Below, one piece after another: positions 1 through 22,259 of a stretch of DNA of 24,000 nucleotides. A model generated the notes under the pieces. It ran no database searches, was not told where the DNA came from, and was given only the letters and a program-made list of their open reading frames with translations. Position numbers and translations under genes: made by a program. The stretch covers positions 20,851 to 44,850 of the forward strand of contig NZ_JACRTG010000004.1 in NCBI RefSeq assembly GCF_014385195.1, in the 5' to 3' direction. Position 1 is the first letter of the stretch; each line of letters starts with the position of its first letter. The DNA comes from Paratissierella segnis. GTDB lineage: Bacteria; Bacillota; Clostridia; Tissierellales; Tissierellaceae.

Positions 1-54
1 TAAAATCCTCCTAACAATTTTAATTAAATTGTTAGGTCCAATTTATATGTTATG

Positions 55-334
55 TCATAAAAAAATCTTTCGCTCCTATCAATATAGCTATAGCTATACT
101 CATAGGGACGAAAGATTATAAATCCGCGGTACCACCCTAATTATGACATATGTCATCGCTCAATCAGACCTAACAGTCCTATCCCTTGTAACGATGGGCT
201 TTCGGATTCGTCTACTTGAAAAATTCGTTTAACGAATCAGCTTAGGAGTGAATATTGCATATCATCTTACTGTTGGCTTCCACCTTTTCCAACTCTCTAG
301 AAATAAGATAGGATATCTTTCTCTCCGTCAAAGC
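55..334 (-). promoter_or_regulatory. T-box leader (tRNA-sensing attenuator) with inferred specifier UUC (Phe). It controls a gene that starts just beyond the left window edge.
   Basis: Read on the minus strand. Stem I starts GCTTTGACGGAGAG (GA/K-turn-like) and carries AGAGAG and GGTGGAAG distal motifs. The specifier loop 3' side ends ATATTC-A-CTCC (codon at plus 250-252). The canonical T-box core GGGTGGTACCGCGG lies at plus 124-138. A 14-bp terminator stem plus U7 lies at plus 59-115. A GGAGGA RBS lies at plus 6-11, next to the window edge. Confidence 0.85.
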
Positions 335-352
335 TTTTTTTGAATTGATACT

Positions 353-381
353 ATTCTATGCTGTTATGAACAATTTGTCAA
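353..381 (-). promoter_or_regulatory. sigma-A type promoter for the Phe T-box leader
   Basis: On the minus strand, TTGACA (plus 376-381), a 17-nt spacer, then TAGAAT (plus 353-358). Confidence 0.6.
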
Positions 382-393
382 TAGATTTTCAAA

Positions 394-1377
394 TTATTTT
401 ATTTTTTCTGAAGTTTTAAAGACTTCATCATTTTCATCTAGCTTTAGAGATTTAAGAGTATTTTCATTAAATACTTTTTTTGTATTGGCTGATGTTTCTG
501 ACGGCAGTTCTCCGGGAGCTTTATTATTTACTAAAATTTCTTGAGCCATTTTAGCAGATTGCTTTCCCAGCTCATAGTAGCTAATACCATCAGTTATCAG
601 TATTCCGCCTTTAACATGAGAATCTTCAGCTCCAACTGTTATAAGATTATTTTCAACAGCCTTTTGCGCTACTACATTGATTGCAGATGCTACCATATTG
701 TCTGTGATGGTATATATGGCATCCACTTTTTTAATTATAGAATCCACTGCTTGAGGAATTTCATTTATAGTTGATATACCAACCGTTATGACTTCTAATC
801 CCTCATCCGGTGCTAAGCTTTTAACCTCATCTATCTGAACTTCAGAATTGTTTTCTCCCGTATTGTACAAAATGCCTATTTTTTTAATATTTGGGTCTAT
901 TTGTTTGAACATTTGTAATTGGGATTTAGTGGGTGCTAGATCCGATGTTCCTGTTACATTTCCTCCCGGATGTTTCATTGAATCTACTAATTCCGATTCG
1001 ACCGGGTCTGTAACCGCACTAAAGATTATAGGAATATCATCTGTAGCTTGTTTTGCACTTTGTGCAGCCGGTGTTGCAATTGCATATATTAAATCCACTT
1101 CATCTTTTACAAACTTTTGCGCAATACTCAATGTATTTGGAATCTCTCCCTGAGCATTTTGATATATAATTTCCGCGTCTACTCCCAATTCTTTTAATCC
1201 GTCTATGAACCCTAATCTGGCATCATCAAGAGCAGGGTGTTCAGAGAGCTGACTGATTCCTATCGTATATTTTTGTGCCTTTGAAGATGCTTTGCTTCCG
1301 CTATTTGTACAACCTGATAACATCAATACACCTACCATAACTACTGCAATTAAACTCTTTACTTTACCTTTTTTCAT
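394..1377 (-). CDS. ABC transporter substrate-binding lipoprotein of the ABC_sub_bind (PF04392 / COG2984) family, probably an amino-acid-binding component
   Basis: 327-aa ORF with a lipoprotein signal (LMLSGC). The N-terminal region YTIGISQLSEHPALDDARLGFIDGLKELG is typical of the family as I recall it. A GGAGGA RBS lies 7 nt upstream, and the gene is directly preceded by a T-box leader. Confidence 0.88.
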   Translation of the reverse strand: MKKGKVKSLIAVVMVGVLMLSGCTNSGSKASSKAQKYTIGISQLSEHPALDDARLGFIDGLKELGVDAEIIYQNAQGEIPNTLSIAQKFVKDEVDLIYAIATPAAQSAKQATDDIPIIFSAVTDPVESELVDSMKHPGGNVTGTSDLAPTKSQLQMFKQIDPNIKKIGILYNTGENNSEVQIDEVKSLAPDEGLEVITVGISTINEIPQAVDSIIKKVDAIYTITDNMVASAINVVAQKAVENNLITVGAEDSHVKGGILITDGISYYELGKQSAKMAQEILVNNKAPGELPSETSANTKKVFNENTLKSLKLDENDEVFKTSEKIK

Positions 1378-1432
1378 TTAAAATCCTCCTAACAATTTTA
1401 ATTAAATTGTTAGGTCCAATTTATATGTTATG

Positions 1433-1714
1433 TCATAAAAAAATCTTTCGCTCCTATCAATATAGCTATAGCTATACTCATAGGGACGAAAGATTATAAA
1501 TCCGCGGTACCACCCTAATTATGACATATGTCATCGCTCAATCAGACCTAACAGTCCTATCCCTTGTAACGATGGGCTTTCGGATTCGTCTACTTGAAAA
1601 ATTCGTTTAACGAATCAGCTTAGGAGTGTATATATCGTATCTTGTTATTGTTGGGTTTCACCTTTGTCCCAACTCTCTAAAAATAATCTAGGATACGTTT
1701 CTCTCCTTCAACGC
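1433..1714 (-). promoter_or_regulatory. T-box leader with inferred specifier UAC (Tyr), controlling the 394-1377 binding-protein gene
   Basis: Read on the minus strand. Stem I starts GCGTTGAAGGAGAG and has AGAGAG and GGTGAAA motifs. The helix CGTATC/GATACG sits above the specifier loop, which ends ATATAC-A-CTCC (codon at plus 1628-1630). The T-box core GGGTGGTACCGCGG is at plus 1502-1516, and the terminator plus U7 at plus 1437-1493. Confidence 0.85.
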
Positions 1715-1732
1715 TTTTATGTAATAAATAAC

Positions 1733-1761
1733 ATTCTAAAGGCTTTATCCCAAAAAGTCAA
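1733..1761 (-). promoter_or_regulatory. sigma-A type promoter for the Tyr T-box leader
   Basis: On the minus strand, TTGACT (plus 1756-1761), a 17-nt spacer, then TAGAAT (plus 1733-1738). Confidence 0.6.
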
Positions 1762-1817: not shown

Positions 1818-2351
1818 TCATTGTGCCACAAACTCTGCGCCCCGTTCGGTTTTCACTTCTATGGAACTGACATTTAGATATAAATCTGTATAATATTCTT
1901 CCGTGACCAATTCTGGCGTACCAGTTACTCTTATCCAGTCATTTTCATTGGGAAAGTTTCCGTCGTATTTTAAGAGGAATCCGCCCCATCCATCATTTCC
2001 GCAGCAACCCGGGCCATTGCGATAAACGACAGGAGTTGTTTCATTACCGTCCCATGAGTAGAAAAGTGCATATATTCCCTCTACAACAATCGTTTTATCT
2101 TTATAGTCATCAAAGTTAAAATATATATCATTGATCTGAGTTAAGAACATCTTTTCACCGATTTCTAAAATATCTGAGTCTGATGATTTATCATCTTCTT
2201 CTAATGAATCGGAAGCTACAGGCATTTGAATTTCAGTGGTTTCACTGGATGAGGGTTCTTCAAAATCAGCTTTACCGACTCCGCTGCCACAAGCGGATAA
2301 AAGCATACAAAGAAAAAGAATAGTGCACATCATTTTGTATTTATTTATCAT
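1818..2351 (-). CDS. Lipoprotein of unknown function with an acidic linker and a C-terminal beta-rich domain carrying a GPGCCGNDGWGG motif. It is the last gene of the zinc-type ABC operon.
   Basis: 177-aa ORF with lipobox LLSAC. It overlaps the permease stop by 11 nt, which suggests translational coupling. The CC-x-x-D motif recalls the C-terminal domain of DUF1980/TIGR03943 proteins; this is from memory and unverified. Confidence 0.7.
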   Translation of the reverse strand: MINKYKMMCTILFLCMLLSACGSGVGKADFEEPSSSETTEIQMPVASDSLEEDDKSSDSDILEIGEKMFLTQINDIYFNFDDYKDKTIVVEGIYALFYSWDGNETTPVVYRNGPGCCGNDGWGGFLLKYDGNFPNENDWIRVTGTPELVTEEYYTDLYLNVSSIEVKTERGAEFVAQ

Positions 2352-3183
2352 GGATAGTTACTCCTTTCACCGTTTTGATCAGCCAATAAAGGAAGAACAC
2401 AATTATATTGCATAAGACGATACTGGCTCCTGTAGGTGTTGCATAGACATAGGATATTGTCAATCCAATCCATAGACATATAACTGAGATGATTGCCGAA
2501 TTTACGATGACAGTCTTAAATCTTTTGCATAACCGCATGGAAGTTAGTGCTGGGAATACGATCAAGCTGGTAATCAGCAAAGCTCCCATCATCCGCATAC
2601 CCAGCACTATGATCAATGCAGTTAGGAGGGCAATCAGCATATTATAAAGTTCGGCGTTGGTTCCTGTCGCCTTCGCAAAAGATTCGTCAAAAGTAACGGC
2701 AAAGATGCGGTTGTAGAATAAGACGAATAGGAGAAGTACAACAACTGATAGAATAACACTCAAATTGACATCACTTTGTGACATGCTGAGGATGCTGCCG
2801 AACAGATAGTTGCATACATCTGTATTCATGCCTGTTGTCATAGAAATAATCATCACTCCTACGGCTAGAGCCCCTGTAGAAATCAGGGCAATCGCAGCAT
2901 CGCCTTTGATTTTGCTGCTTTCACTGATTCTGAGTAATAGAAATGCCGCCAACACGACGATAGGAATTGAAACCGTAAGTGGAGACATATTCAGCGCTGT
3001 AGCCAACGCCAAAGCGCCAAAACCTACATGGGAAAGTCCATCTCCAATCATGGAATACCTTTTAAGTACAAGACTTACACCCAGCAGCGACGAACAAAGA
3101 GCTACTATTGTACCTACAAAAATTGCCCTTACCATAAAGGGATAAGAAAACATCTCTTTGAGCAAATCAAGCACGAAAACCAC
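2341..3183 (-). CDS. znuB: Metal (zinc-type) ABC transporter permease, ABC-3 / ZnuB family
   Basis: 280-aa polytopic membrane ORF with the sequence character of TroCD/ZnuB permeases. It overlaps the upstream ATPase gene and sits in a znuA-znuC-znuB context. Confidence 0.85.
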   Translation of the reverse strand: MVFVLDLLKEMFSYPFMVRAIFVGTIVALCSSLLGVSLVLKRYSMIGDGLSHVGFGALALATALNMSPLTVSIPIVVLAAFLLLRISESSKIKGDAAIALISTGALAVGVMIISMTTGMNTDVCNYLFGSILSMSQSDVNLSVILSVVVLLLFVLFYNRIFAVTFDESFAKATGTNAELYNMLIALLTALIIVLGMRMMGALLITSLIVFPALTSMRLCKRFKTVIVNSAIISVICLWIGLTISYVYATPTGASIVLCNIIVFFLYWLIKTVKGVTIHDK

Positions 3184-3877
3184 CTCCCATAAACCTACGG
3201 CCTATTTCACTATTTTTATAATCCGCTGTTGTTCCGAAGAAAAGCTGAGTGTGATAGAGATGAAGAATATGCTTTGCATATTGTACTGCCGAATGGATGT
3301 CATGGGAAACCATAATAACGGTAATCTCCATATCTTGGTTAATCTTTCGTATCAACTCGTATAATTCCTGTGTAACCATCGGATCTAGTCCTGCCGCGGG
3401 TTCATCTAATAAAATCAGTTTTTGGGTGGAACATAAGGCACGAGCCAATAATACCCGTTGCTGTTGGCCGCCGGATAGCTCGCGATAGCAACGATCTCTC
3501 AGATCTATAATATCCATTCGCAGTAAGTTTTCCTCGACAAGAGTTTTTTCTTTTTTTGTATAAAATGGTTTGATACCCAATCTATTTAAGCATCCGGAGA
3601 GAACAACTTCATAGACGCTTGCAGGGAAATCCTTTTGTACTATAGTCTGCTGAGGAAGATAGCCGATTTCGTTAGCCATAAGTCCGTTTTCTATACTGAT
3701 AGTACCGCTTGATGGTTTTTTGAGCCGCAGCAAACCTTTAATCAATGTGCTTTTTCCGGCTCCATTTTCTCCTACAACACAGAGATAATCACCCTGTTCT
3801 ACAGAAAAATTGAGATCTTTCACAGCGGGGAATCCATCATATGTAAAGGAAATATTTTTGCATGTAATCAAATTCAT
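3167..3877 (-). CDS. znuC: Metal ABC transporter ATP-binding protein, ZnuC family
   Basis: Walker A GENGAGKST, signature LSGGQQQR, Walker B LILLDEP and H-loop SHD. At 236 aa its size is typical of cluster-9 metal importers. Confidence 0.9.
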   Translation of the reverse strand: MNLITCKNISFTYDGFPAVKDLNFSVEQGDYLCVVGENGAGKSTLIKGLLRLKKPSSGTISIENGLMANEIGYLPQQTIVQKDFPASVYEVVLSGCLNRLGIKPFYTKKEKTLVEENLLRMDIIDLRDRCYRELSGGQQQRVLLARALCSTQKLILLDEPAAGLDPMVTQELYELIRKINQDMEITVIMVSHDIHSAVQYAKHILHLYHTQLFFGTTADYKNSEIGRRFMGGGFRA

Positions 3878-3969
3878 AATACAAATGTTACCTCTCTTTC
3901 AAATAGAATTAAAAATAAAGTTAAATAAGATTAGCAGCAGTGATATATTTACTACCGCTGCTGACCCTG

Positions 3970-4956
3970 TTAGTTTAAGGCGGTACGGAGACTTTCCACA
4001 TTTTCGGACATCATAGATAGGTATGTGACTCCTGCATCCATTTGATCTTTGGTAATATTGTGACAGGAATACAGTGTCATTTTCTCCGCTCCTGTTGCTT
4101 CACAAATGGAATCTGCAATTTTTCCATCTGAAAGCTCTATTGTGAATACAACGGGTAATTGTTCTTTTTTAATCTTATCCACTAGAAATGCCACTGTAGC
4201 AGCACTGGCTTCAGTTTCTGTCGAACAGCCTGTAAACGCAGCATAATAGCTAAGATCATACTCATCAGCAAAATATCTGAACGGGAAACGGTCACCGAAT
4301 ACAATAGTTTTGCGCTTTGCACTCTCTACAACCTCACGGAAGGAAATATCCAAATCATTCAACTGTTTAATATAGTTTGCACTGTTTTTTTCATATATGT
4401 CGGCATTTCCCTTATCTTTCTCGATCATTAAAGAAGTAATTTTATTCACGATTTCAATGGCATTTTTGGGCGAAGTCCATACATGTTCGTCAATTTCTTC
4501 TTCATGTTCGTGTTCATCTTCATGTTCGTGTTCATCTTCATGCTCATCTTCATGTTCATGCTCCATTCCCTCCACGATTTCCTCTGTTACGGTAGTAATA
4601 CAATCCACCAGTCGTAAGGTGTCCGGCTTCTTATCTCCCATAGAATTCAGAATATCGTCTACCCATACATCATTTTCACCGCCGATATAAATAAACAGGT
4701 CACAATTTTGGATGGATTTGATGTCTTGGGGAGTGGGTTCATAAGAGTGACTCTCCGCACCAGGTTTTAGCAGCATTGTTACGTCTGCTTTATCGTCTGC
4801 GATTTGACGCGCAAAATCGTATTGCGGAAAAATTGTTGTGACAATAGATAATTTATCCATGTCTGAGTTTTCATCCTGCGTATTCGATGAATTGCAACCG
4901 GTCAGGCAGGAAAGGGTCAATATAAGCGTCAAGCAAAGAATAAATATTTTTTTCAT
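3970..4956 (-). CDS. znuA: Zinc ABC transporter substrate-binding lipoprotein (ZnuA/AdcA, TroA-like) with a His/Glu-rich loop
   Basis: The lipoprotein signal MKKIFILCLTLILTLSCLTGC follows a GGAGG RBS. I therefore place the start at 4956 rather than the ORF-track 4992. The loop HEHEDEHEDEHEHEDEHEHEE is characteristic of zinc-specific members. Confidence 0.88.
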   Translation of the reverse strand: MKKIFILCLTLILTLSCLTGCNSSNTQDENSDMDKLSIVTTIFPQYDFARQIADDKADVTMLLKPGAESHSYEPTPQDIKSIQNCDLFIYIGGENDVWVDDILNSMGDKKPDTLRLVDCITTVTEEIVEGMEHEHEDEHEDEHEHEDEHEHEEEIDEHVWTSPKNAIEIVNKITSLMIEKDKGNADIYEKNSANYIKQLNDLDISFREVVESAKRKTIVFGDRFPFRYFADEYDLSYYAAFTGCSTETEASAATVAFLVDKIKKEQLPVVFTIELSDGKIADSICEATGAEKMTLYSCHNITKDQMDAGVTYLSMMSENVESLRTALN

Positions 4957-5059
4957 GTTATTATAACCTCCGTAATTCTGATTTTTGGGCACAAAAATAC
5001 AAGGACATTGTTATGCAGCCTTAAAAATGGACATAATACGCCCTTGTTGGATGGAGGGT

Positions 5060-14807: not shown

Positions 14808-16082
14808 CTAAAGATACATCAATACTTCTGCTTTAAACAGATTATCCGTATAGCTATACTCAAGGAGTCCATTATATTTTTCAAGAGTGGACTCTATATT
14901 TTTGAGCCCAAGCCCGTGATTATCCTTATCATCTTTAGTGGTTATTAAACCTTTGGCGCCTACAGATATCTTTCCATCAAAATTATTTTGGATTTGGATT
15001 ATAAGTACCCCACGGTCATACTTTATAGATACCCAAATAGTTCTGTTTTCCTTTAATTTTTTCAAAGCTTCTACAGAATTATCGAGAAGATTTCCAAGGA
15101 TAACAACCATGTCAAAAGATTCCAACTCCAAATCGGAAGGAACTTTAATATCAAGATGGGTATTTACGCCTATGGACTTTACATAGTCAAGCTTATAATT
15201 TAATATACTGTCTATCACAAGATTTCCGGACTCCACAATTTTACTGTTAAAGGGGGCGTATTTTTCAAGCTGGTTTATATAGTTTAGAGCTCTGGAGATC
15301 TCATTTTCTCTTATAAGGGAGCCGATAGCTCCTATGTGGTTAGCTATATCGTGTTTTAGAGAAGCAGTTTTTTCTACAGAAGATTTCATAAGCCAAAATT
15401 GATTATCATAGTATCTTTTTTCCTGCTCCAATATGGATTTTTCAATCTTCATTTCAGCAGAGGATTTCAGCGCATCATATAGGTAAAATAAGAGAACGAT
15501 AATCAGAAATAAGAGAGAAATGATTATGCTTGCTTTGACAGTATGTATTTGTGAGTCTACAAGAGCAACCACTATATATAGGGAGCTTAAAGATATAATT
15601 AAAATGGACAACCAATAGCTTGTGGAAAGTTCGAAACCCTTTTTAATATTGCTATAGTTTTCAATAAACAAAGCTGCAAAAAATCCAATAAGTTTTGAGA
15701 AAATATATCCCAGTGAAAATGAATATCCTGGGTTTTTGCCAAATACGGATATGACCAGATAACCTGTTAATAAAGAAACAATAGTTTCTGAAATCATTAA
15801 AATTAAATATATTAAAAATACTGCTATAAATCTATTTTTATATGTAGCTTCATAATTAAATGAAATAAGAGCCAGTAATATAATATTACTTACAAGTGTA
15901 ATGATAGGTATATTTACTATTAAATATAAGGCGCTTATAATGAAATAATAAGAAAAATAAGATAATATCTCTATTTTATTGTTTGAGGCTATATCTTTAA
16001 AAAATACATGCATAAGCTTATATATTGTATATACATATATCAATTCCGATGACAGATAAATGATATAATTGTTTAAATCCAT
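14808..16082 (-). CDS. agrC: AgrC-like (HPK10, GHKL) membrane sensor histidine kinase
   Basis: About 200 aa of polytopic N-terminus, H-box SLKHDIANHI, N-box LGNLLDNSVEA and G-box HGLGLKNI. I place the start at ATG 16082, 6 nt after GGAGGAG and 1 nt after the regulator stop; the track gives 16100. Confidence 0.85.
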   Translation of the reverse strand: MDLNNYIIYLSSELIYVYTIYKLMHVFFKDIASNNKIEILSYFSYYFIISALYLIVNIPIITLVSNIILLALISFNYEATYKNRFIAVFLIYLILMISETIVSLLTGYLVISVFGKNPGYSFSLGYIFSKLIGFFAALFIENYSNIKKGFELSTSYWLSILIISLSSLYIVVALVDSQIHTVKASIIISLLFLIIVLLFYLYDALKSSAEMKIEKSILEQEKRYYDNQFWLMKSSVEKTASLKHDIANHIGAIGSLIRENEISRALNYINQLEKYAPFNSKIVESGNLVIDSILNYKLDYVKSIGVNTHLDIKVPSDLELESFDMVVILGNLLDNSVEALKKLKENRTIWVSIKYDRGVLIIQIQNNFDGKISVGAKGLITTKDDKDNHGLGLKNIESTLEKYNGLLEYSYTDNLFKAEVLMYL

Positions 16083-16083
16083 A

Positions 16084-16803
16084 TTATTCTCCTCCACCAA
16101 CCAATCTAATAAGCTTTTCTCTCATGGATTTTCTTCTGGATTGGCTTATTGGAAGTTCTATATTATTAGACATAATTACTCTATCGTACAAATAGGACCT
16201 TATATAAAGGTTATTTACTAAATAGGACTTGTGGATATAAAGGAAACCTAGATTTTTGACTTTATCATACACATAATCCATAGAACCATAAAAAGAATCC
16301 CTGCTATCTTTTGTAATTATATTTATCTTTCTATCATCACTTTCAAAGTATATTATATCCTTTGACTCTATTTTGTTGTAAGTATGTCCTTTTTTATACT
16401 GAAAATAGCTATTTTTCGAGTTAATAATCCTAAGAGCAGTAAGAAATAATTCCTCAACATGTTCTAAATGCAAAGGCTTAATTAAGAAATCTATCGGCCT
16501 TATTTGAAAAAGATCCATAGCATAGCTTTGTTTTCCTGAAATATATGCTATCTGTGTGCTATCATCCATCATATCATTTCTGATTTTTAAGCCTAATTGA
16601 ATACCATCCATATCCTCCATCTCAATGTCAAGAAATATTAAATCAAAGGAATTTTCATCCATTATATGATTTAGCAGTTCTACTCCAGAGAAAAAAACAT
16701 CAATTTCAACAAGGACTGAATGCTTTTTACCAAGTTCAATAAGCATTTTATCAAGCTGAGAGGTAACTTCTACCACATCATCACAAATAGCAATTTTTAG
16801 CAT
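16084..16803 (-). CDS. agrA: LytTR-family response regulator (AgrA-like)
   Basis: Receiver domain (KIAICDD ... DLIFLDIEMEDMDG) plus a C-terminal LytTR-type DNA-binding domain. I place the start at ATG 16803, after an AAGGAGGG RBS. Confidence 0.85.
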   Translation of the reverse strand: MLKIAICDDVVEVTSQLDKMLIELGKKHSVLVEIDVFFSGVELLNHIMDENSFDLIFLDIEMEDMDGIQLGLKIRNDMMDDSTQIAYISGKQSYAMDLFQIRPIDFLIKPLHLEHVEELFLTALRIINSKNSYFQYKKGHTYNKIESKDIIYFESDDRKINIITKDSRDSFYGSMDYVYDKVKNLGFLYIHKSYLVNNLYIRSYLYDRVIMSNNIELPISQSRRKSMREKLIRLVGGGE

Positions 16804-16828
16804 GTCCATCCCTCCTTTAATTATTAAC

Positions 16829-16857
16829 ATTATACCAATAATTTTAAATTTCTACAA
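16829..16857 (-). promoter_or_regulatory. Extended -10 promoter for the regulator-kinase operon
   Basis: On the minus strand, TTGTAG (plus 16852-16857), a 17-nt spacer, then TGGTATAAT (plus 16829-16837). The -35 element lies inside repeat copy 1. Confidence 0.6.
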
Positions 16858-19597: not shown

Positions 19598-19636
19598 AAT
19601 TCACAATTCACAATTCACAATTCACAATTCACAATT
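19598..19636. repeat. Heptanucleotide microsatellite, (AATTCAC)x5 plus AATT
   Basis: Perfect tandem copies at 19598-19632 plus a partial copy. It lies between the metQ stop (19635-19637) and the small ORF. Confidence 0.95.
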
Positions 19637-20435
19637 AAAATGCCGGTACTACTCCACCATCATAGTTTTCCTCGATGAATTTTCTAACTTTATCTGACTG
19701 CAAAGCTTTTAACAATTTTTGAAACTTTTCTTGATTTTCTTCACCCTCTCTTACAGCTACAATATTAGCATAAGGTGAGTCTTTATCCTCTATTATTAAT
19801 CCGTCATTAACCGGGTTCAATCCTGCTTCCAAAGCATAATTCCCATTGATTACAGCGCCATCAACATCATCTAGTACTCTTGGAAGCCCTGCAGCTTCCA
19901 AAGCTGTTATTTTTATGTTTTTAGGGTTTTCAACTATATCTTTTTCCGTAGCACTTAGTCCGGCACCTTCTTTTAATTTAATTAATCCGTTGTGCTCCAA
20001 TAAAATCAATGCCCTGCCCCCGTTAACACTATCATTTGGAACTACGATCTCAGCATTATTGGGTATTTCGTCCAAAGAATTATATTTATTTGAATACAAT
20101 GCCATAGGTTCAACATGTACACTTCCCAAAGATATCAATTTTACGTTTTGCTTAGCAACAAAATCTTCTAAATAAGGAAGATGCTGAAAGAAATTTGCAT
20201 CCAATTCTCCATCGTTTAAAGCAATATTTGGCTGGACATAATCTGTAAAGGTAACTGTCTTAACCTCTATACCTTCTTTTTTCAAATCATCAATTACCAA
20301 TGAAATTAGTTTTTCATGGGGTTCAGGGGACACTCCAATGATTATTTCATTATCTTTTTCTGACTTTTCACTGTAGCCTGCTAATAAGGATAAAGATAAA
20401 ATAGATATTATTAAAATTGAAAATATTTTTTTCAT
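19635..20435 (-). CDS. metQ: Methionine ABC transporter substrate-binding protein (MetQ/NlpA family). The lipobox cysteine is replaced by Tyr.
   Basis: 266 aa. The blocks IIIGVSPEPHEKL, FTDYVQPNIALNDGELDANFFQH and NGNYA are typical of MetQ. The signal peptide ends LLAGY (TAC at plus 20373-20375) where LLAGC is expected. Confidence 0.88.
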   Translation of the reverse strand: MKKIFSILIISILSLSLLAGYSEKSEKDNEIIIGVSPEPHEKLISLVIDDLKKEGIEVKTVTFTDYVQPNIALNDGELDANFFQHLPYLEDFVAKQNVKLISLGSVHVEPMALYSNKYNSLDEIPNNAEIVVPNDSVNGGRALILLEHNGLIKLKEGAGLSATEKDIVENPKNIKITALEAAGLPRVLDDVDGAVINGNYALEAGLNPVNDGLIIEDKDSPYANIVAVREGEENQEKFQKLLKALQSDKVRKFIEENYDGGVVPAF

Positions 20436-20453
20436 TTATATTCCTCCAATAAT

Positions 20454-21095
20454 TTATTTTTTGTTAATACTGGTTGATAGTTTATTTCCTAAAAATTGTA
20501 TTGATTGTACCAAAAAAACAATAATTAAAACTGAATAAATCATAACATCTGTTTTAAAACCATAATATCCAAAACGTATTGCCAAATCTCCCAGGCCACC
20601 GCCGCCAAGAGCTCCTGCCATAGCGGAATATCCGATTAGATTGATTATAGTAAGGGTTATTCCCAATATAATAGAGGGCATGGCTTCGGGTATCAATACC
20701 TTGAAAATAATTTGTGGAATACTGGCACCCATGGATAGGCTTAATTCAATTACACCTTTATCTACTTCTTTAAAGCTACTTTCCATAACTCTGGCAACGA
20801 AAGGAGCAGCTGCTATGGATAATGGAATTATAGTAGCAGTAGTCCCTATTCTTGTACCAACTATGAGTTTGGACAATGGAAACAATAAAATCATAAGAAT
20901 TAAAAATGGAAATGATCTTAATGCATTAATTATTCCATTGAGAATTTTATTAAGTAGCGGTTGTTCCCATATATTGCCCTTTTCAGTTACTACTAGGAGT
21001 ACCCCTAAAGGGAATCCTAACAGTACCGAGAAAATAGTAGAGAATAATACCATATATAGGGTTTCCATTAAAGGTTGTACAAATAAATCAGCCAT
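20454..21095 (-). CDS. metI: Methionine ABC transporter permease
   Basis: 213-aa polytopic ORF in the MetI-like permease family. Its start overlaps the metN stop. Confidence 0.88.
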   Translation of the reverse strand: MADLFVQPLMETLYMVLFSTIFSVLLGFPLGVLLVVTEKGNIWEQPLLNKILNGIINALRSFPFLILMILLFPLSKLIVGTRIGTTATIIPLSIAAAPFVARVMESSFKEVDKGVIELSLSMGASIPQIIFKVLIPEAMPSIILGITLTIINLIGYSAMAGALGGGGLGDLAIRFGYYGFKTDVMIYSVLIIVFLVQSIQFLGNKLSTSINKK

Positions 21096-22099
21096 TATAT
21101 CACCTCCACATGTACATTTTCATTTTTAAGATATGAAAGTGCACGATTTATTTCATCATCTTCACCAATGAATTCCAGCATCAGATATCCAACATTTGTT
21201 GCTTGCAGCTTGTTGATATTTCCGGAAAGTATATTTATATTTATATCGAAATTTTTCATAACTTCTGAAATTATAGGTTTTTTTGCACTATTTCCAAGAT
21301 AACTTAGTCTAATAATTTTTCCTTGAAAATCATCAGGATTTATAAACTCATCGTCTATATTTTCAGGTATAGCATTTACAAAATTTTTAGCAGTCTTAGT
21401 TTGTGGTGATTTAAACAAATTTTCAACGGTATTTACTTCTATAATTCTTCCATTTTCCATGATTGCAACTCTATCGCATATTTCCTTAACTACTTCCATT
21501 TGATGTGTTATCATTACAATGGTAAGTCCAAGTTCCTTCCTAATTTTATTTAGTAGAGAAAGTATGGACTTAGTTGTTTTTGGATCAAGTGCAGAAGTAC
21601 CTTCATCACTTAATAACAATTTTGGCTTATTAGCTATGGCTCTGGCAATTGCCACCCTTTGTTTTTGTCCGCCGCTAAGTTGGCTTGGATAGGCATATTT
21701 TTTATCTGTCAATTCAACGTAAGATAATAGTTCGTTTACTCTATTTTCAATTTGTTCACTACTTTGTCTTTCTAATTGTAATGGGAAAGCAATATTTTCA
21801 TATACTGTTTTTTGAGAAAGAAGATTGAAATGCTGAAAGATCATGCCAATTTCCTTCCTTTGTTTCCTTAAATCCTCCTTGCCCAATCCCGTTATATCAA
21901 TTCCATCTATAACAATCTTTCCGCTTGAAGGTTCTTCTAGTCTATTGACACATCTTATAAGGGTAGATTTACCGGCACCGCTTAAACCGATAATACCAAA
22001 AATCTCCCCTTTTTCTATTTTAAGATTGACTTCTTTGACTGCAGTTAAGGTATCTTCTCCTACTATAAAGTTTTTCGTGAGATTTTCAATTTGTATCAT
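21095..22099 (-). CDS. metN: Methionine ABC transporter ATP-binding protein with a C-terminal NIL domain
   Basis: Walker A GLSGAGKST, signature LSGGQKQR and Walker B LLLSDE. A C-terminal regulatory domain of about 90 aa is present. The gene is preceded by a SAM riboswitch. Confidence 0.92.
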   Translation of the reverse strand: MIQIENLTKNFIVGEDTLTAVKEVNLKIEKGEIFGIIGLSGAGKSTLIRCVNRLEEPSSGKIVIDGIDITGLGKEDLRKQRKEIGMIFQHFNLLSQKTVYENIAFPLQLERQSSEQIENRVNELLSYVELTDKKYAYPSQLSGGQKQRVAIARAIANKPKLLLSDEGTSALDPKTTKSILSLLNKIRKELGLTIVMITHQMEVVKEICDRVAIMENGRIIEVNTVENLFKSPQTKTAKNFVNAIPENIDDEFINPDDFQGKIIRLSYLGNSAKKPIISEVMKNFDININILSGNINKLQATNVGYLMLEFIGEDDEINRALSYLKNENVHVEVI

Positions 22100-22126: not shown

Positions 22127-22259
22127 AAAAAAACCTCTTGATAAAAGAGGCGGCCGTTCCTCTCTCATCTCTCGGTAAATACCGTTGGAATTAGCACCTT
22201 GTAATTTCACAGGTTGCTGGGCTTCATCGGGCCAATCCCTCCACCTCTCTGGATAAGAG
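22127..22259 (-). promoter_or_regulatory. SAM-I (S-box) riboswitch with terminator
   Basis: On the minus strand: CTCTTATCCAGAGAGGTGGAGGGATTGGCCCGATGAAGCCCAGCAACC ... AAGGTGCTAATTCCAAC ... GAGAGATGAGAG, then CCTCTT-TTATC-AAGAGG plus T7. Confidence 0.92.

What the first reader, a model, noticed from the sequence alone, without database searches (positions are those of the whole stretch)
1..1761. Twin T-box leaders, identical for 250 nt and diverging exactly at the specifier codon (UUC versus UAC)
Plus 1-250 is base-for-base identical to 1379-1628. This block covers the RBS, the terminator/antiterminator, the T-box core and the middle stems.

On the minus strand, the first mismatch is the middle base of the triplet in the canonical specifier position. 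That position is NNN plus a purine, immediately 5' of the helix closing the specifier loop. The downstream copy reads TTC-A-CTCC (plus 250-252) and the upstream copy reads TAC-A-CTCC (plus 1628-1630).

Beyond that point stem I is only roughly 70 percent similar by eye. It still keeps the GA motif, the AGAGAG bay and the GGTG distal loop, and the helix above the specifier loop is compensated (ATATC/GATAT versus CGTATC/GATACG).

UUC and UAC are the usual Phe and Tyr specifiers. Both tRNAs normally carry an A discriminator, which can pair with the shared UGGU bulge, so one common expression platform is functionally coherent.

This looks like a duplicated aromatic-amino-acid uptake module. Ligand (tRNA) specificity seems to have been switched in stem I while the 3' half was kept homogenised, either by gene conversion or by a very recent duplication. 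From memory, transporters of this family have been linked to His and Trp T-boxes. I do not recall a Phe/Tyr pair.
Basis: partly seen in the sequence, partly recalled or inferred. Interest (0 to 1): 0.7.

Follow-up and report, generated by a model that had tools for sequence, protein, structure and literature searches.

The report
Twin Tyr/Phe T-box leaders, gene-converted
Two ordinary tRNA-sensing T-box riboswitches, one reading tRNA-Tyr and one tRNA-Phe, each control one of two tandem paralogous amino-acid-binding protein genes; recent gene conversion has made them identical from just after the single specificity-determining nucleotide onward.

Summary
Window 1-250 equals 1379-1628 exactly, and the first mismatch is the middle base of the T-box specifier (UUC versus UAC). 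Both leaders pass Rfam RF00230 (121 and 129 bits; threshold 93).

The window edge hides most of the repeat. In contigs of the same species (Paratissierella segnis) the identical run is 599 nt. It covers the rest of the leader and the first 116 codons of both binding-protein genes.

The operon is P1, T-box(Tyr), SBP1, P2, T-box(Phe), SBP2, permease, ATPase.

This is gene conversion between old paralogs, not a recent duplication:
- dS is 0 in codons 1-116, 0.2 in codons 141-200 and saturated elsewhere.
- The C-terminal parts fall into separate clades that track the specifier.
- 17 related loci carry the same pair with divergent 3' halves, always in the order Phe then Tyr. Here the order is reversed.

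Across 81 related leaders the specifier middle base is the only fully diagnostic position, and all have a UGGU bulge.

These are canonical T-boxes on a known aromatic-amino-acid ABC family, and a tidy case of concerted evolution. Exact identity rests on short-read assemblies. The tRNA response and the ligands are inferred, not tested.

The parts
1733..1761 (-). Promoter P1 (TTGACT-17-TAGAAT) upstream of the Tyr T-box leader
   Evidence: Promoter scan, 10 of 12 matches; the -10 hexamer ends 13 nt before the Rfam hit starts. This is a consensus match only.
1479..1720 (-). T-box leader, Tyr copy (Rfam RF00230, full-length match)
   Evidence: 129.1 bits against a gathering score of 93; model positions 1-219. 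The same call is made in L001.
1628..1630 (-). Specifier codon UAC (Tyr), followed by A and the closing helix CUCC
   Evidence: Covariance-model alignment. The homologous column is xAC in 49 related leaders that precede Y-type binding proteins.
1030..1628 (-). Upstream copy of the 599-nt identical block: third specifier base, stems II/IIA-B/III, T-box sequence, terminator, RBS, and SBP1 codons 1-116
   Evidence: Alignment of the two units in L001 and run-length counts in six assemblies. Permutation test: 0 of 20000 shuffles. dS = 0 over codons 1-116.
1503..1516 (-). Conserved T-box sequence AGGGUGGUACCGCG, with the UGGU bulge at 1509-1512
   Evidence: Sequence and covariance-model alignment. 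UGGU is present in all F-type and Y-type leaders examined.
1435..1495 (-). Intrinsic terminator of the Tyr leader: hairpin 1442-1495 plus U7 at 1435-1441. It overlaps the 3' arm of the antiterminator.
   Evidence: Identical to the downstream copy, which folds at -29.5 kcal/mol with z = -6.8.
394..1377 (-). SBP1: 327-aa lipoprotein substrate-binding protein (PF04392), Y-type lineage, predicted Tyr binder
   Evidence: Pfam 244.9 bits. Best PDB match is 6HNI, the Tyr-binding CD0873, at 1.5e-68. It carries the Y-type residue at all six lineage-diagnostic positions outside the older conversion tract (130, 134, 137, 254, 263, 298). It sits in the Y clade of the C-terminal tree.
778..958 (-). Older conversion tract inside SBP1 (codons 141-200), F-type in both paralogs
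   Evidence: 96% nucleotide identity; dS 0.20, dN 0.02. Both copies are closer to F-type than to Y-type relatives here, and SBP1 has F-type residues at 156 and 185.
353..381 (-). Promoter P2 (TTGACA-17-TAGAAT), 12 nt after the SBP1 stop codon and upstream of the Phe T-box leader
   Evidence: Promoter scan, 11 of 12 matches. No terminator-like site lies between the SBP1 stop and P2.
101..340 (-). T-box leader, Phe copy (Rfam RF00230, full-length match)
   Evidence: 121.4 bits against a gathering score of 93.
250..252 (-). Specifier codon UUC (Phe), followed by A and CUCC
   Evidence: Covariance-model alignment. The homologous column is xUC in 32 related leaders that precede F-type binding proteins.
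1..250 (-). Downstream copy of the identical block, cut by the window edge. The remaining 349 nt (one base, then SBP2 codons 1-116) lie left of the window.
   Evidence: Within it: T-box sequence at 125-138, terminator hairpin at 64-117, U7 at 57-63.
7..36 (-). Shine-Dalgarno AGGAGG (7-12), partly enclosed in an 11-bp hairpin (10-36); the twin is at 1385-1414
   Evidence: Sequence and ViennaRNA fold. The SBP2 start codon begins 2 nt left of window position 1.

Best explanation
**What it is.** The element is a pair of canonical transcription-attenuating T-box riboswitches in Paratissierella segnis (Tissierellaceae). They sit in one aromatic-amino-acid ABC-uptake locus: P1, T-box(UAC, Tyr), SBP1, P2, T-box(UUC, Phe), SBP2, permease, ATPase.

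**How each leader works (inferred from family membership).**
- Stem I reads the tRNA anticodon with its specifier.
- Uncharged tRNA pairs its NCCA end with the UGGU bulge.
- That pairing stabilises the antiterminator against a -29.5 kcal/mol terminator followed by U7.

**Expected regulation (inferred).**
- Tyr limitation should induce SBP1.
- Phe limitation should induce SBP2 together with the shared permease and ATPase.
- P1 transcripts that pass the first switch meet the second switch, because no terminator separates SBP1 from P2.

**Evolution (shown).**
- The two T-box+SBP units are old paralogs that co-vary with the specifier throughout Tissierellia.
- In this species a recent gene conversion made them identical over 599 nt. 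The run starts at the third specifier base and ends at codon 116.
- An older conversion covers codons 141-200.

**The boundary (inferred).** The tract stops right next to the one nucleotide that distinguishes Phe leaders from Tyr leaders. The most likely reason is selection: a conversion that overwrote that base would leave one binding protein under the wrong amino-acid signal.
For: **T-box membership**
- Rfam scores are 129.1 and 121.4 bits against a threshold of 93. The specifiers align at the consensus position.
- The terminator folds at -29.5 kcal/mol with z = -6.8, followed by U7.
- 13 of 17 stem I pairs show compensatory changes.

**Operon layout**
- The full operon was recovered from six independent assemblies that are about 99.7% identical to the window.
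- Both protein sequences are also on record under adjacent accession numbers from P. segnis genome entries.
- Both leaders have their own promoter-like site.

**Conversion rather than recent duplication**
- The identity profile is mosaic: 100%, then 72%, 96%, and 81 falling to 48%.
- dS is 0, saturated, 0.20, then above 1.5 along the gene.
- The run of 599 gives P of about 5e-57.
- The C-terminal tree separates F and Y clades, with SBP2 in F and SBP1 in Y. The N-terminal tree groups paralogs by genome for this species, L007 and L010.
- In relatives, exact-identity runs are at most 218 nt and none comes nearer than about 129 nt downstream of the specifier.
- Three strain SNPs inside the block appear in both copies.

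**Specifier and protein lineage co-vary**
- Every UUC leader precedes an F-type SBP and every UAC leader a Y-type SBP. The few most distant loci (Peptoniphilaceae L027, L028; L034, L070, L071) are too diverged to type.
- The six lineage-diagnostic residues outside the older conversion tract follow suit.
- The specifier middle base is the only fully diagnostic column between 32 F and 49 Y leaders.

**Shared platform is coherent**
- All F and Y leaders with data at that position carry UGGU.

**Ligand class**
- The closest solved structures bind Tyr, Phe and Trp (PMC6816091).
Against: - Every sequence seen comes from short-read assemblies (the metagenome contigs carry SPAdes-style NODE names). 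A few real differences between the copies could have been merged, which would also explain SNPs shared by both copies. Identity of at least about 99% is safe; exact identity is not proven.
- No tRNA genes were available. The A73 discriminators of tRNA-Phe and tRNA-Tyr rest on general knowledge and on the invariant UGGU.
- Both SBP1 and SBP2, and nearly all F-type relatives, keep the Glu that hydrogen-bonds the tyrosine hydroxyl in CD0873 (E251), as well as Y267. The structural rule from PMC6816091 therefore does not separate a Phe binder from a Tyr binder here. The Phe assignment of SBP2 rests on the T-box alone.
- The regulatory logic leaves the permease and ATPase behind the Phe switch only. 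Tyr uptake during Tyr-only limitation would then depend on leaky read-through or on another translocator.
- The donor of the block is unresolved.
- The selection argument for the tract boundary rests on one event in one species.
Confidence: 0.8

Rival explanations
1. The two units come from a very recent tandem duplication of one T-box+SBP unit. Stem I and the C-terminal two thirds of the protein then diverged rapidly. The identical block is what remains of the duplicate.
For: Perfect identity over 599 nt, tandem arrangement with 1378-nt spacing.
Against: - dS is saturated in codons 117-140 and 201-326 while it is 0 in codons 1-116.
- The divergent segments of SBP1 and SBP2 are each closer to a different old lineage found in other genera.
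- The Y stem I matches Y leaders of other genomes, such as L024.
- 17 related loci already carry both units with divergent 3' leader halves.
Confidence: 0.04
2. The repeat is an assembly artefact. Either the duplication is not real, or the perfect identity comes from the assembler merging two similar but non-identical copies.
For: - All sources are short-read de Bruijn assemblies.
- A 599-nt repeat exceeds typical read length.
- The three strain SNPs appear in both copies, which is what a merged repeat traversed twice would produce.
Against: - The same layout (upstream flank, Y stem I, block, SBP1 C-terminus plus F stem I, block, SBP2 C-terminus, permease) is found in six independent assemblies. 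Both proteins are also on record from P. segnis genome entries.
- The unique middle segment is joined to the block at both ends, so a tandem array is the only linear solution.
- The tandem two-unit architecture is conserved in 17 related loci.
- The assembler did resolve the neighbouring tract that differs by 5%.
- Merging could hide only a handful of differences, which would not change the conclusion.
Confidence: 0.08
3. The conversion is real, but its end next to the specifier is coincidence or mechanics, for example heteroduplex rejection where stem I divergence begins. It is not the result of selection on the specifier.
For: - There is only one such event.
- Stem I just upstream is 79-81% identical with mismatches every few bases, which could stop branch migration.
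- In relatives, tracts end at various places.
Against: - The 3' leader halves of relatives are also only about 75-95% identical between the F and Y copies, so divergence alone did not stop the tract there.
- The endpoint falls within a few bases of the single fully diagnostic nucleotide in a unit of about 1400 nt.
- No leader/SBP lineage mismatch was seen among the typable units in about 70 loci. This argues that specifier-erasing conversions are removed.
Confidence: 0.35
4. The two leaders are not functionally distinct. Either both binding proteins take up the same substrate (for example both Tyr), or the F-type protein binds both Phe and Tyr, and the specifier difference only tunes expression.
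For: Both proteins keep E251 and Y267, the residues that define tyrosine recognition in CD0873.
Against: - The specifier co-varies with the protein lineage wherever the lineage can be typed, across 81 leaders, and with diagnostic residues 134 M/W, 137 P/V, 254 H/Q and 263 D/N.
- Both units are retained side by side in at least 18 loci.
Confidence: 0.15

Closest known systems
Bacillus subtilis tyrS T-box leader and the UAC-to-UUC specifier swap (Grundy and Henkin; cited from my own knowledge and as summarised in PMC2494555)
   Same: Stem I specifier UAC, UGGU bulge read by an A73 tRNA, and competing terminator and antiterminator. A single middle-base change, UAC to UUC, re-targets the switch from tRNA-Tyr to tRNA-Phe. 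The twin leaders here are a natural version of that experiment on an identical 3' chassis.
   Different: Here the switches control transporter binding-protein genes, not an aminoacyl-tRNA synthetase. The two versions coexist in one operon. Nothing has been tested experimentally.
TrpXYZ, the T-box-regulated tryptophan ABC importer of Streptococcus suis and S. pneumoniae (PMC9382623; PDB 3LFT)
   Same: Same transporter family (PF04392 binding protein, BPD_transp_2 permease, ABC ATPase) under a T-box leader.
   Different: - TrpXYZ has a single binding protein and a Trp specifier.
- SBP1 and SBP2 score 273 and 266 bits on the NCBIfam TrpX equivalog, below its 390-bit cut-off.
- Both keep Tyr at the position where the Trp binder has Gln.
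Clostridioides difficile CD0873 tyrosine-binding lipoprotein and its paralog CD0876 (PDB 6HNI; PMC6816091)
   Same: Closest solved structure (E = 1.5e-68). It is a lipoprotein binding protein for an aromatic amino acid, and the Glu that binds the tyrosine hydroxyl is conserved. Two roughly 70%-identical paralogs sit in neighbouring systems.
   Different: - In C. difficile each paralog has its own translocator.
- Neither appears by that locus tag in the table of T-box-regulated C. difficile units in a 2024 review.
- No gene conversion has been described there.
T-box duplication followed by a specifier change (Wels et al. 2008, PMC2494555; Vitreschak et al. 2008, as cited in PMC3766115)
   Same: This is the general evolutionary mode. 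T-boxes duplicate with or without their gene and acquire a new specificity through specifier change, including a Tyr-to-Phe case in the B. cereus group.
   Different: Those cases involve divergence after duplication. Here an old Phe/Tyr pair has been re-homogenised by conversion up to the specifier. A full-text search for T-box, specifier and gene conversion together found no paper.
argT-hisJQMP of Salmonella and E. coli: two paralogous binding proteins with separate promoters sharing one translocator (own knowledge)
   Same: Tandem paralogous binding proteins with different substrate preferences feed a single permease/ATPase, and each has its own regulatory input.
   Different: Regulation there uses protein factors and promoters, not riboswitches, and the transporter family is different.
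Concerted evolution of bacterial paralogs by gene conversion, for example tufA/tufB (own knowledge)
   Same: Mosaic identity, dS near zero inside the tracts, and paralogs that cluster by genome.
   Different: Here the tract spans a riboswitch expression platform plus a coding N-terminus, and it abuts a single functionally divergent nucleotide.

Membership tests
T-box leader (Rfam RF00230) | Covariance-model score at or above the curated gathering score (93 bits) over the full model | tested here: met
   129.1 and 121.4 bits, model positions 1-219 of 219, not truncated.
T-box leader (Rfam RF00230) | Stem I has a specifier loop presenting a codon followed by a purine, next to the closing helix. 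It also has the distal AGAGA and GGUG motifs. | tested here: met
   UAC-A-CUCC and UUC-A-CUCC sit at the consensus place. AGAGAG and GGUG are present. 13 of 17 stem I pairs show compensatory changes in relatives.
T-box leader (Rfam RF00230) | Conserved 14-nt T-box sequence with a UGGN bulge, inside an antiterminator that competes with an intrinsic terminator | tested here: met
   AGGGUGGUACCGCG is present. The terminator hairpin folds at -29.5 kcal/mol (z = -6.8) followed by U7, and shares its 5' arm with the antiterminator.
T-box leader (Rfam RF00230) | Read-through induced by the cognate uncharged tRNA, with a discriminator base complementary to the N of UGGN | not testable with these tools
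   No tRNA genes in the window or in the 25 loci scanned. Indirect support: every F and Y leader with data at that position carries UGGU.
PF04392 ABC_sub_bind (aromatic/His amino-acid ABC binding proteins) | Pfam score above the gathering threshold, with an operon encoding a BPD_transp_2 permease and an ABC ATPase | tested here: met
   244.9 and 223.6 bits against 25.9. Permease PF02653 scores 87.7 bits and ATPase PF00005 114.5 bits.
TrpX equivalog (NCBIfam NF041285) | Score at or above the curated 390-bit cut-off | tested here: not met
   272.9 and 265.9 bits. These are related paralogs, not TrpX.
CD0873-type tyrosine binder | Glu at the CD0873 Glu-263 position (binds the Tyr hydroxyl) and Tyr at the Tyr-279 position (excludes Trp) | tested here: inconclusive
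   Both residues (E251, Y267) are present in SBP1. They are equally present in SBP2 and in the F-type relatives, so the rule does not discriminate here. Binding was not measured.
Gene conversion / concerted evolution between paralogs | Segmental identity far beyond the background level, heterogeneous dS, and segment-specific phylogenetic incongruence | tested here: met
   A run of 599 against a shuffled maximum of 89. dS of 0, 0.20 and above 1.5. The N-terminal tree groups by genome and the C-terminal tree groups by lineage.
Gene conversion / concerted evolution between paralogs | Strain polymorphisms shared by both copies within a genome | tested here: inconclusive
   Three SNPs in L005 and L006 occur in both copies. 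Merging of the repeat by a short-read assembler would give the same picture.

The most novel reading that the evidence does not exclude
The specifier's middle nucleotide is a selectively held barrier to ongoing concerted evolution. On this reading, P. segnis carries a natural one-base specifier-swap pair. An identical chassis (stems II, IIA/B and III, antiterminator, terminator and RBS) and an identical binding-protein N-terminal region are kept the same by repeated conversion. That chassis serves both a class I tRNA (Phe) and a class II tRNA with a long variable arm (Tyr). If true, tRNA choice in this T-box lineage is set by a single base and nothing downstream of stem I contributes to discrimination.
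Probability: 0.4. Interest if true: 0.6.

Novelty: new member of a known kind. Interest (0 to 1): 0.42.

Why it matters
The pair is a ready-made natural control for T-box specificity. Two leaders in one cell share every nucleotide downstream of the specifier and differ by U versus A at the decoding position, plus ordinary stem I variation. That makes it easy to test how much of tRNA discrimination lies outside the codon-anticodon and discriminator contacts.

It also assigns likely substrates, Tyr and Phe, to two widespread subgroups of a poorly annotated ABC binding-protein family in Tissierellia, and supplies candidate specificity residues at positions 134, 137, 254 and 263.

Finally, it shows gene conversion acting across a riboswitch and its gene as one unit.

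None of this changes how T-boxes are understood to work.

Tried and rejected
- **tRNA genes.** I looked for tRNA-Phe and tRNA-Tyr to check A73. None was found in the window or in 25 loci.
- **Donor of the block.** Nucleotide identity to F-type and Y-type relatives does not resolve it. The 3' leader is 88.1% versus 85.0% identical, and the N-terminal coding part is equal. The N-terminal tree leans only weakly to F-type.
- **Structure-based ligand rule.** The CD0873 rule (Glu-263, Tyr-279) was applied to separate a Phe binder from a Tyr binder. Both residues are conserved in both lineages, so the rule was dropped as a discriminator.
- **Closer relatives.** I searched for relatives that might lack the conversion. 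The best hits in genome and metagenome collections are only 68-75% identical, so the event cannot be dated.
- **Literature.** Vitreschak 2008 and the MMBR 2009 T-box review are not held in the library. I could not check whether a Phe/Tyr pair on this family was tabulated there.
- **Terminator scan.** The simple scan found none because the loop of this terminator is long. Direct folding shows the terminator clearly.
- **Specifier calls.** My first regex-based calls on metagenome loci were unreliable. I replaced them with hmmalign column reads.
Full report
**1. Observation**

Window 1-250 is identical to 1379-1628. The first difference is at 251 versus 1629, which on the minus strand is the middle base of UUC versus UAC.

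Rfam finds two complete T-box leaders on the minus strand, at 1479-1720 (129.1 bits) and 101-340 (121.4 bits); the gathering score is 93. Both alignments put the triplet, the following A and the closing helix CUCC at the consensus specifier position.

The shared part contains:
- the T-box sequence AGGGUGGUACCGCG;
- a terminator hairpin of -29.5 kcal/mol (z = -6.8) followed by U7;
- the Shine-Dalgarno sequence.

Each leader has a near-consensus promoter-like site 13 nt upstream: TTGACT-17-TAGAAT and TTGACA-17-TAGAAT.

**2. What lies beyond the window edge**

The gene between the leaders (394-1377, minus strand) encodes a 327-aa lipoprotein of family PF04392.

Exact-protein look-up returned six independent metagenome contigs that are about 99.7% identical to the window. 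Both protein sequences are also on record under adjacent accession numbers from Paratissierella segnis (Tissierellaceae) genome entries.

These contigs show the full operon: P1, T-box(UAC), SBP1, P2, T-box(UUC), SBP2 (328 aa), permease (BPD_transp_2), ATPase. There are no further T-boxes.

Aligning the two units shows that the identity does not stop at 250 nt. It runs for 599 nt, from the third specifier base through the rest of the leader and the first 116 codons of both genes.

After that the profile is mosaic:
- about 72% identity over codons 117-140;
- about 96% over codons 141-200;
- then a fall from 81% to 48% towards the 3' end.

With 203 differences in 1330 columns, no shuffle out of 20000 gave a run longer than 89.

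**3. Recent duplication or gene conversion**

dS between SBP1 and SBP2 is 0 in codons 1-116, too saturated to estimate in 117-140, 0.20 in 141-200 and above 1.5 in 201-326. A single recent duplication cannot produce that pattern.

Scans of genome and metagenome collections gave 73 related loci, all from Tissierellia or unclassified anaerobic-digester and bioreactor contigs. T-box detection and gene classification show the following.
- UUC leaders precede binding proteins closer to SBP2 (F-type). UAC leaders precede proteins closer to SBP1 (Y-type). The few most distant loci are too diverged to type.
- A tree of residues 201-327 splits cleanly into F and Y clades, with SBP2 in F and SBP1 in Y.
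- A tree of residues 25-116 groups the paralogs by genome for this species, L007 and L010.
- Six lineage-diagnostic residues follow the leader type in SBP1 and SBP2: 130 L/I, 134 M/W, 137 P/V, 254 H/Q, 263 D/N, 298 N/K (Y-type residue first).
- At positions 156 and 185 SBP1 carries the F-type residue. This marks codons 141-200 as an older tract copied from the F copy.

The units are therefore old paralogs. This species has undergone at least two conversions, and the latest is the 599-nt block.

Conversion of the N-terminal coding part also occurred in L010 (218-nt exact run) and L007. No other genome has a tract that comes nearer than about 129 nt downstream of the specifier.

**4. The specifier as the only discriminator**

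Across 32 F and 49 Y leaders from other genomes, the middle specifier base is the only column that is fully diagnostic. The next best columns are only partly diagnostic, each with 12-13 exceptions among the Y leaders.

All of these leaders carry UGGU where the column could be read. That fits A73 in both tRNAs, which I know from the general literature but could not check here. An expression platform shared between the two leaders is therefore functionally plausible.

The tract ends within a few bases of this nucleotide. No leader/protein lineage mismatch was seen among the typable units in any locus. Together these suggest that conversions erasing the specifier are selected against. This rests on one event, so I rate it at about even odds against chance or mechanical termination.

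**5. Arrangement**

Seventeen related loci have the two units adjacent, always Phe first and Tyr second, followed by the permease and ATPase. Only this species has Tyr first.

Other genomes have single units with a translocator, an orphan Tyr unit (L024), or two complete systems side by side (L042, L049). Its C-terminal part is closest to Y-type proteins of single-unit loci: sister to L033 in the tree, and 69-70% identical overall to L033 and the orphan L024. The tandem here may therefore have formed independently. I could not test that.

**6. Expected behaviour (inferred)**

- Tyr limitation lets P1 transcripts through the first terminator, producing SBP1.
- Those transcripts then meet the Phe leader, because only 12 nt and no terminator separate the SBP1 stop codon from P2.
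- Phe limitation lets transcripts into SBP2, the permease and the ATPase.
- The translocator is thus tied to the Phe signal here and to the Tyr signal in relatives. Uptake of the other amino acid must rely on basal read-through or on another translocator.

**7. Ligands**

The closest solved structures are CD0873 with tyrosine (6HNI), VC_1101 with phenylalanine (3LKV) and SP1069 with tryptophan (3LFT).

Both SBP1 and SBP2 keep the Glu that binds the tyrosine hydroxyl in CD0873, and the Tyr that excludes tryptophan. Aromatic amino acids other than Trp are therefore the likely substrates. The split between Phe and Tyr rests on the T-boxes and the lineage-specific residues, not on a structural rule.

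Both proteins fall below the NCBIfam TrpX equivalog cut-off.

**8. Caveats**

All sequences seen are short-read assemblies. The tandem layout is forced by the unique segment that joins the block at both ends, and it is conserved in relatives. However, a few real differences inside the block could have been merged by the assembler. The three strain SNPs shared by both copies are ambiguous for the same reason.

**9. Comparison with the literature**

- T-box duplication with specifier change, including Tyr to Phe, is described (PMC2494555; PMC3766115).
- T-box control of this transporter family is described for Trp (PMC9382623).
- I found no paper combining T-box, specifier and gene conversion.
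- I could not read Vitreschak 2008.

**Verdict.** These are canonical T-boxes on a known transporter family, and the evolutionary pattern is neat and well supported. Interest is moderate.

Noticed in passing
window 1-1761 compared with L007, L009, L010, L012, L014, L017, L028, L034, L040, L044, L054, L058, L060, L063, L064, L068, L072: The unit order is reversed in this species. Here the Tyr unit comes first and the Phe unit sits next to the permease. All 17 other adjacent pairs are Phe first, then Tyr. The tandem may have formed independently, possibly from an orphan Tyr unit such as the one in L024.
   Followed up: partly
window 10-36 and 1388-1414 (minus strand): An 11-bp hairpin (CCUAACAAUUU / AAAUUGUUAGG) encloses the first three bases of the Shine-Dalgarno sequence, downstream of the T-box terminator. 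Several relatives have a different anti-SD hairpin (UAUCCU...AGGAGGAUA) at the same place. This could be a second, translational or stability layer.
   Followed up: partly
L007 5385-5698; L010 3691-3979; L033 451-657: Insertions of 200-300 nt lie between the T-box terminator and the start codon of the binding-protein gene. The L007 and L010 inserts share sequence (AUGACCUAA.ACAACGAA...GGUUGUGAGUU...). No Rfam family matched at the gathering threshold. Their nature is unknown.
   Followed up: no
window 22162-22259 (minus strand), with genes at 19635-22099: A SAM-I riboswitch (89.3 bits) lies upstream of a metNIQ-type methionine ABC transporter: ABC_tran+NIL, BPD_transp_1 and an NlpA lipoprotein. 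This is a standard arrangement.
   Followed up: yes
window 1818-4992 (minus strand): A ZnuA / ABC ATPase / ABC-3 permease / DUF1980_C operon ends 57 nt upstream of promoter P1. No obvious terminator lies between them, so read-through into the Tyr leader is possible.
   Followed up: partly
L005 11214-12055: In one assembly the ATPase gene of the operon is split into ORFs of 155 and 94 aa. This is either a frameshift in that strain or an assembly error.
   Followed up: no
L011 3233-3488 (-), L031 1508-1748 (-), L030 1025-1234 (-), L013 514-774, L019 6674-6934, L062 about 986, L059 about 362 (-): Further T-box leaders with other specifiers sit close to, and often divergent from, the Phe or Tyr units in relatives. 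This suggests clusters of T-box-regulated amino-acid genes. Their specifiers and downstream genes were not examined.
   Followed up: no
SBP1/SBP2 residues 134, 137, 254, 263 (window about 589-978, minus strand): The residue pairs M/W, P/V, H/Q and D/N separate Tyr-leader proteins from Phe-leader proteins across 34 relatives. The Glu used by CD0873 to bind the tyrosine hydroxyl is invariant in both groups. The Phe/Tyr discrimination rule in this clade must therefore differ from the published one.
   Followed up: partly
window 14808-16830 (minus strand): A GHKL histidine kinase (HATPase_c_5) and a LytTR response regulator form a pair. They are unrelated to the finding.
   Followed up: no
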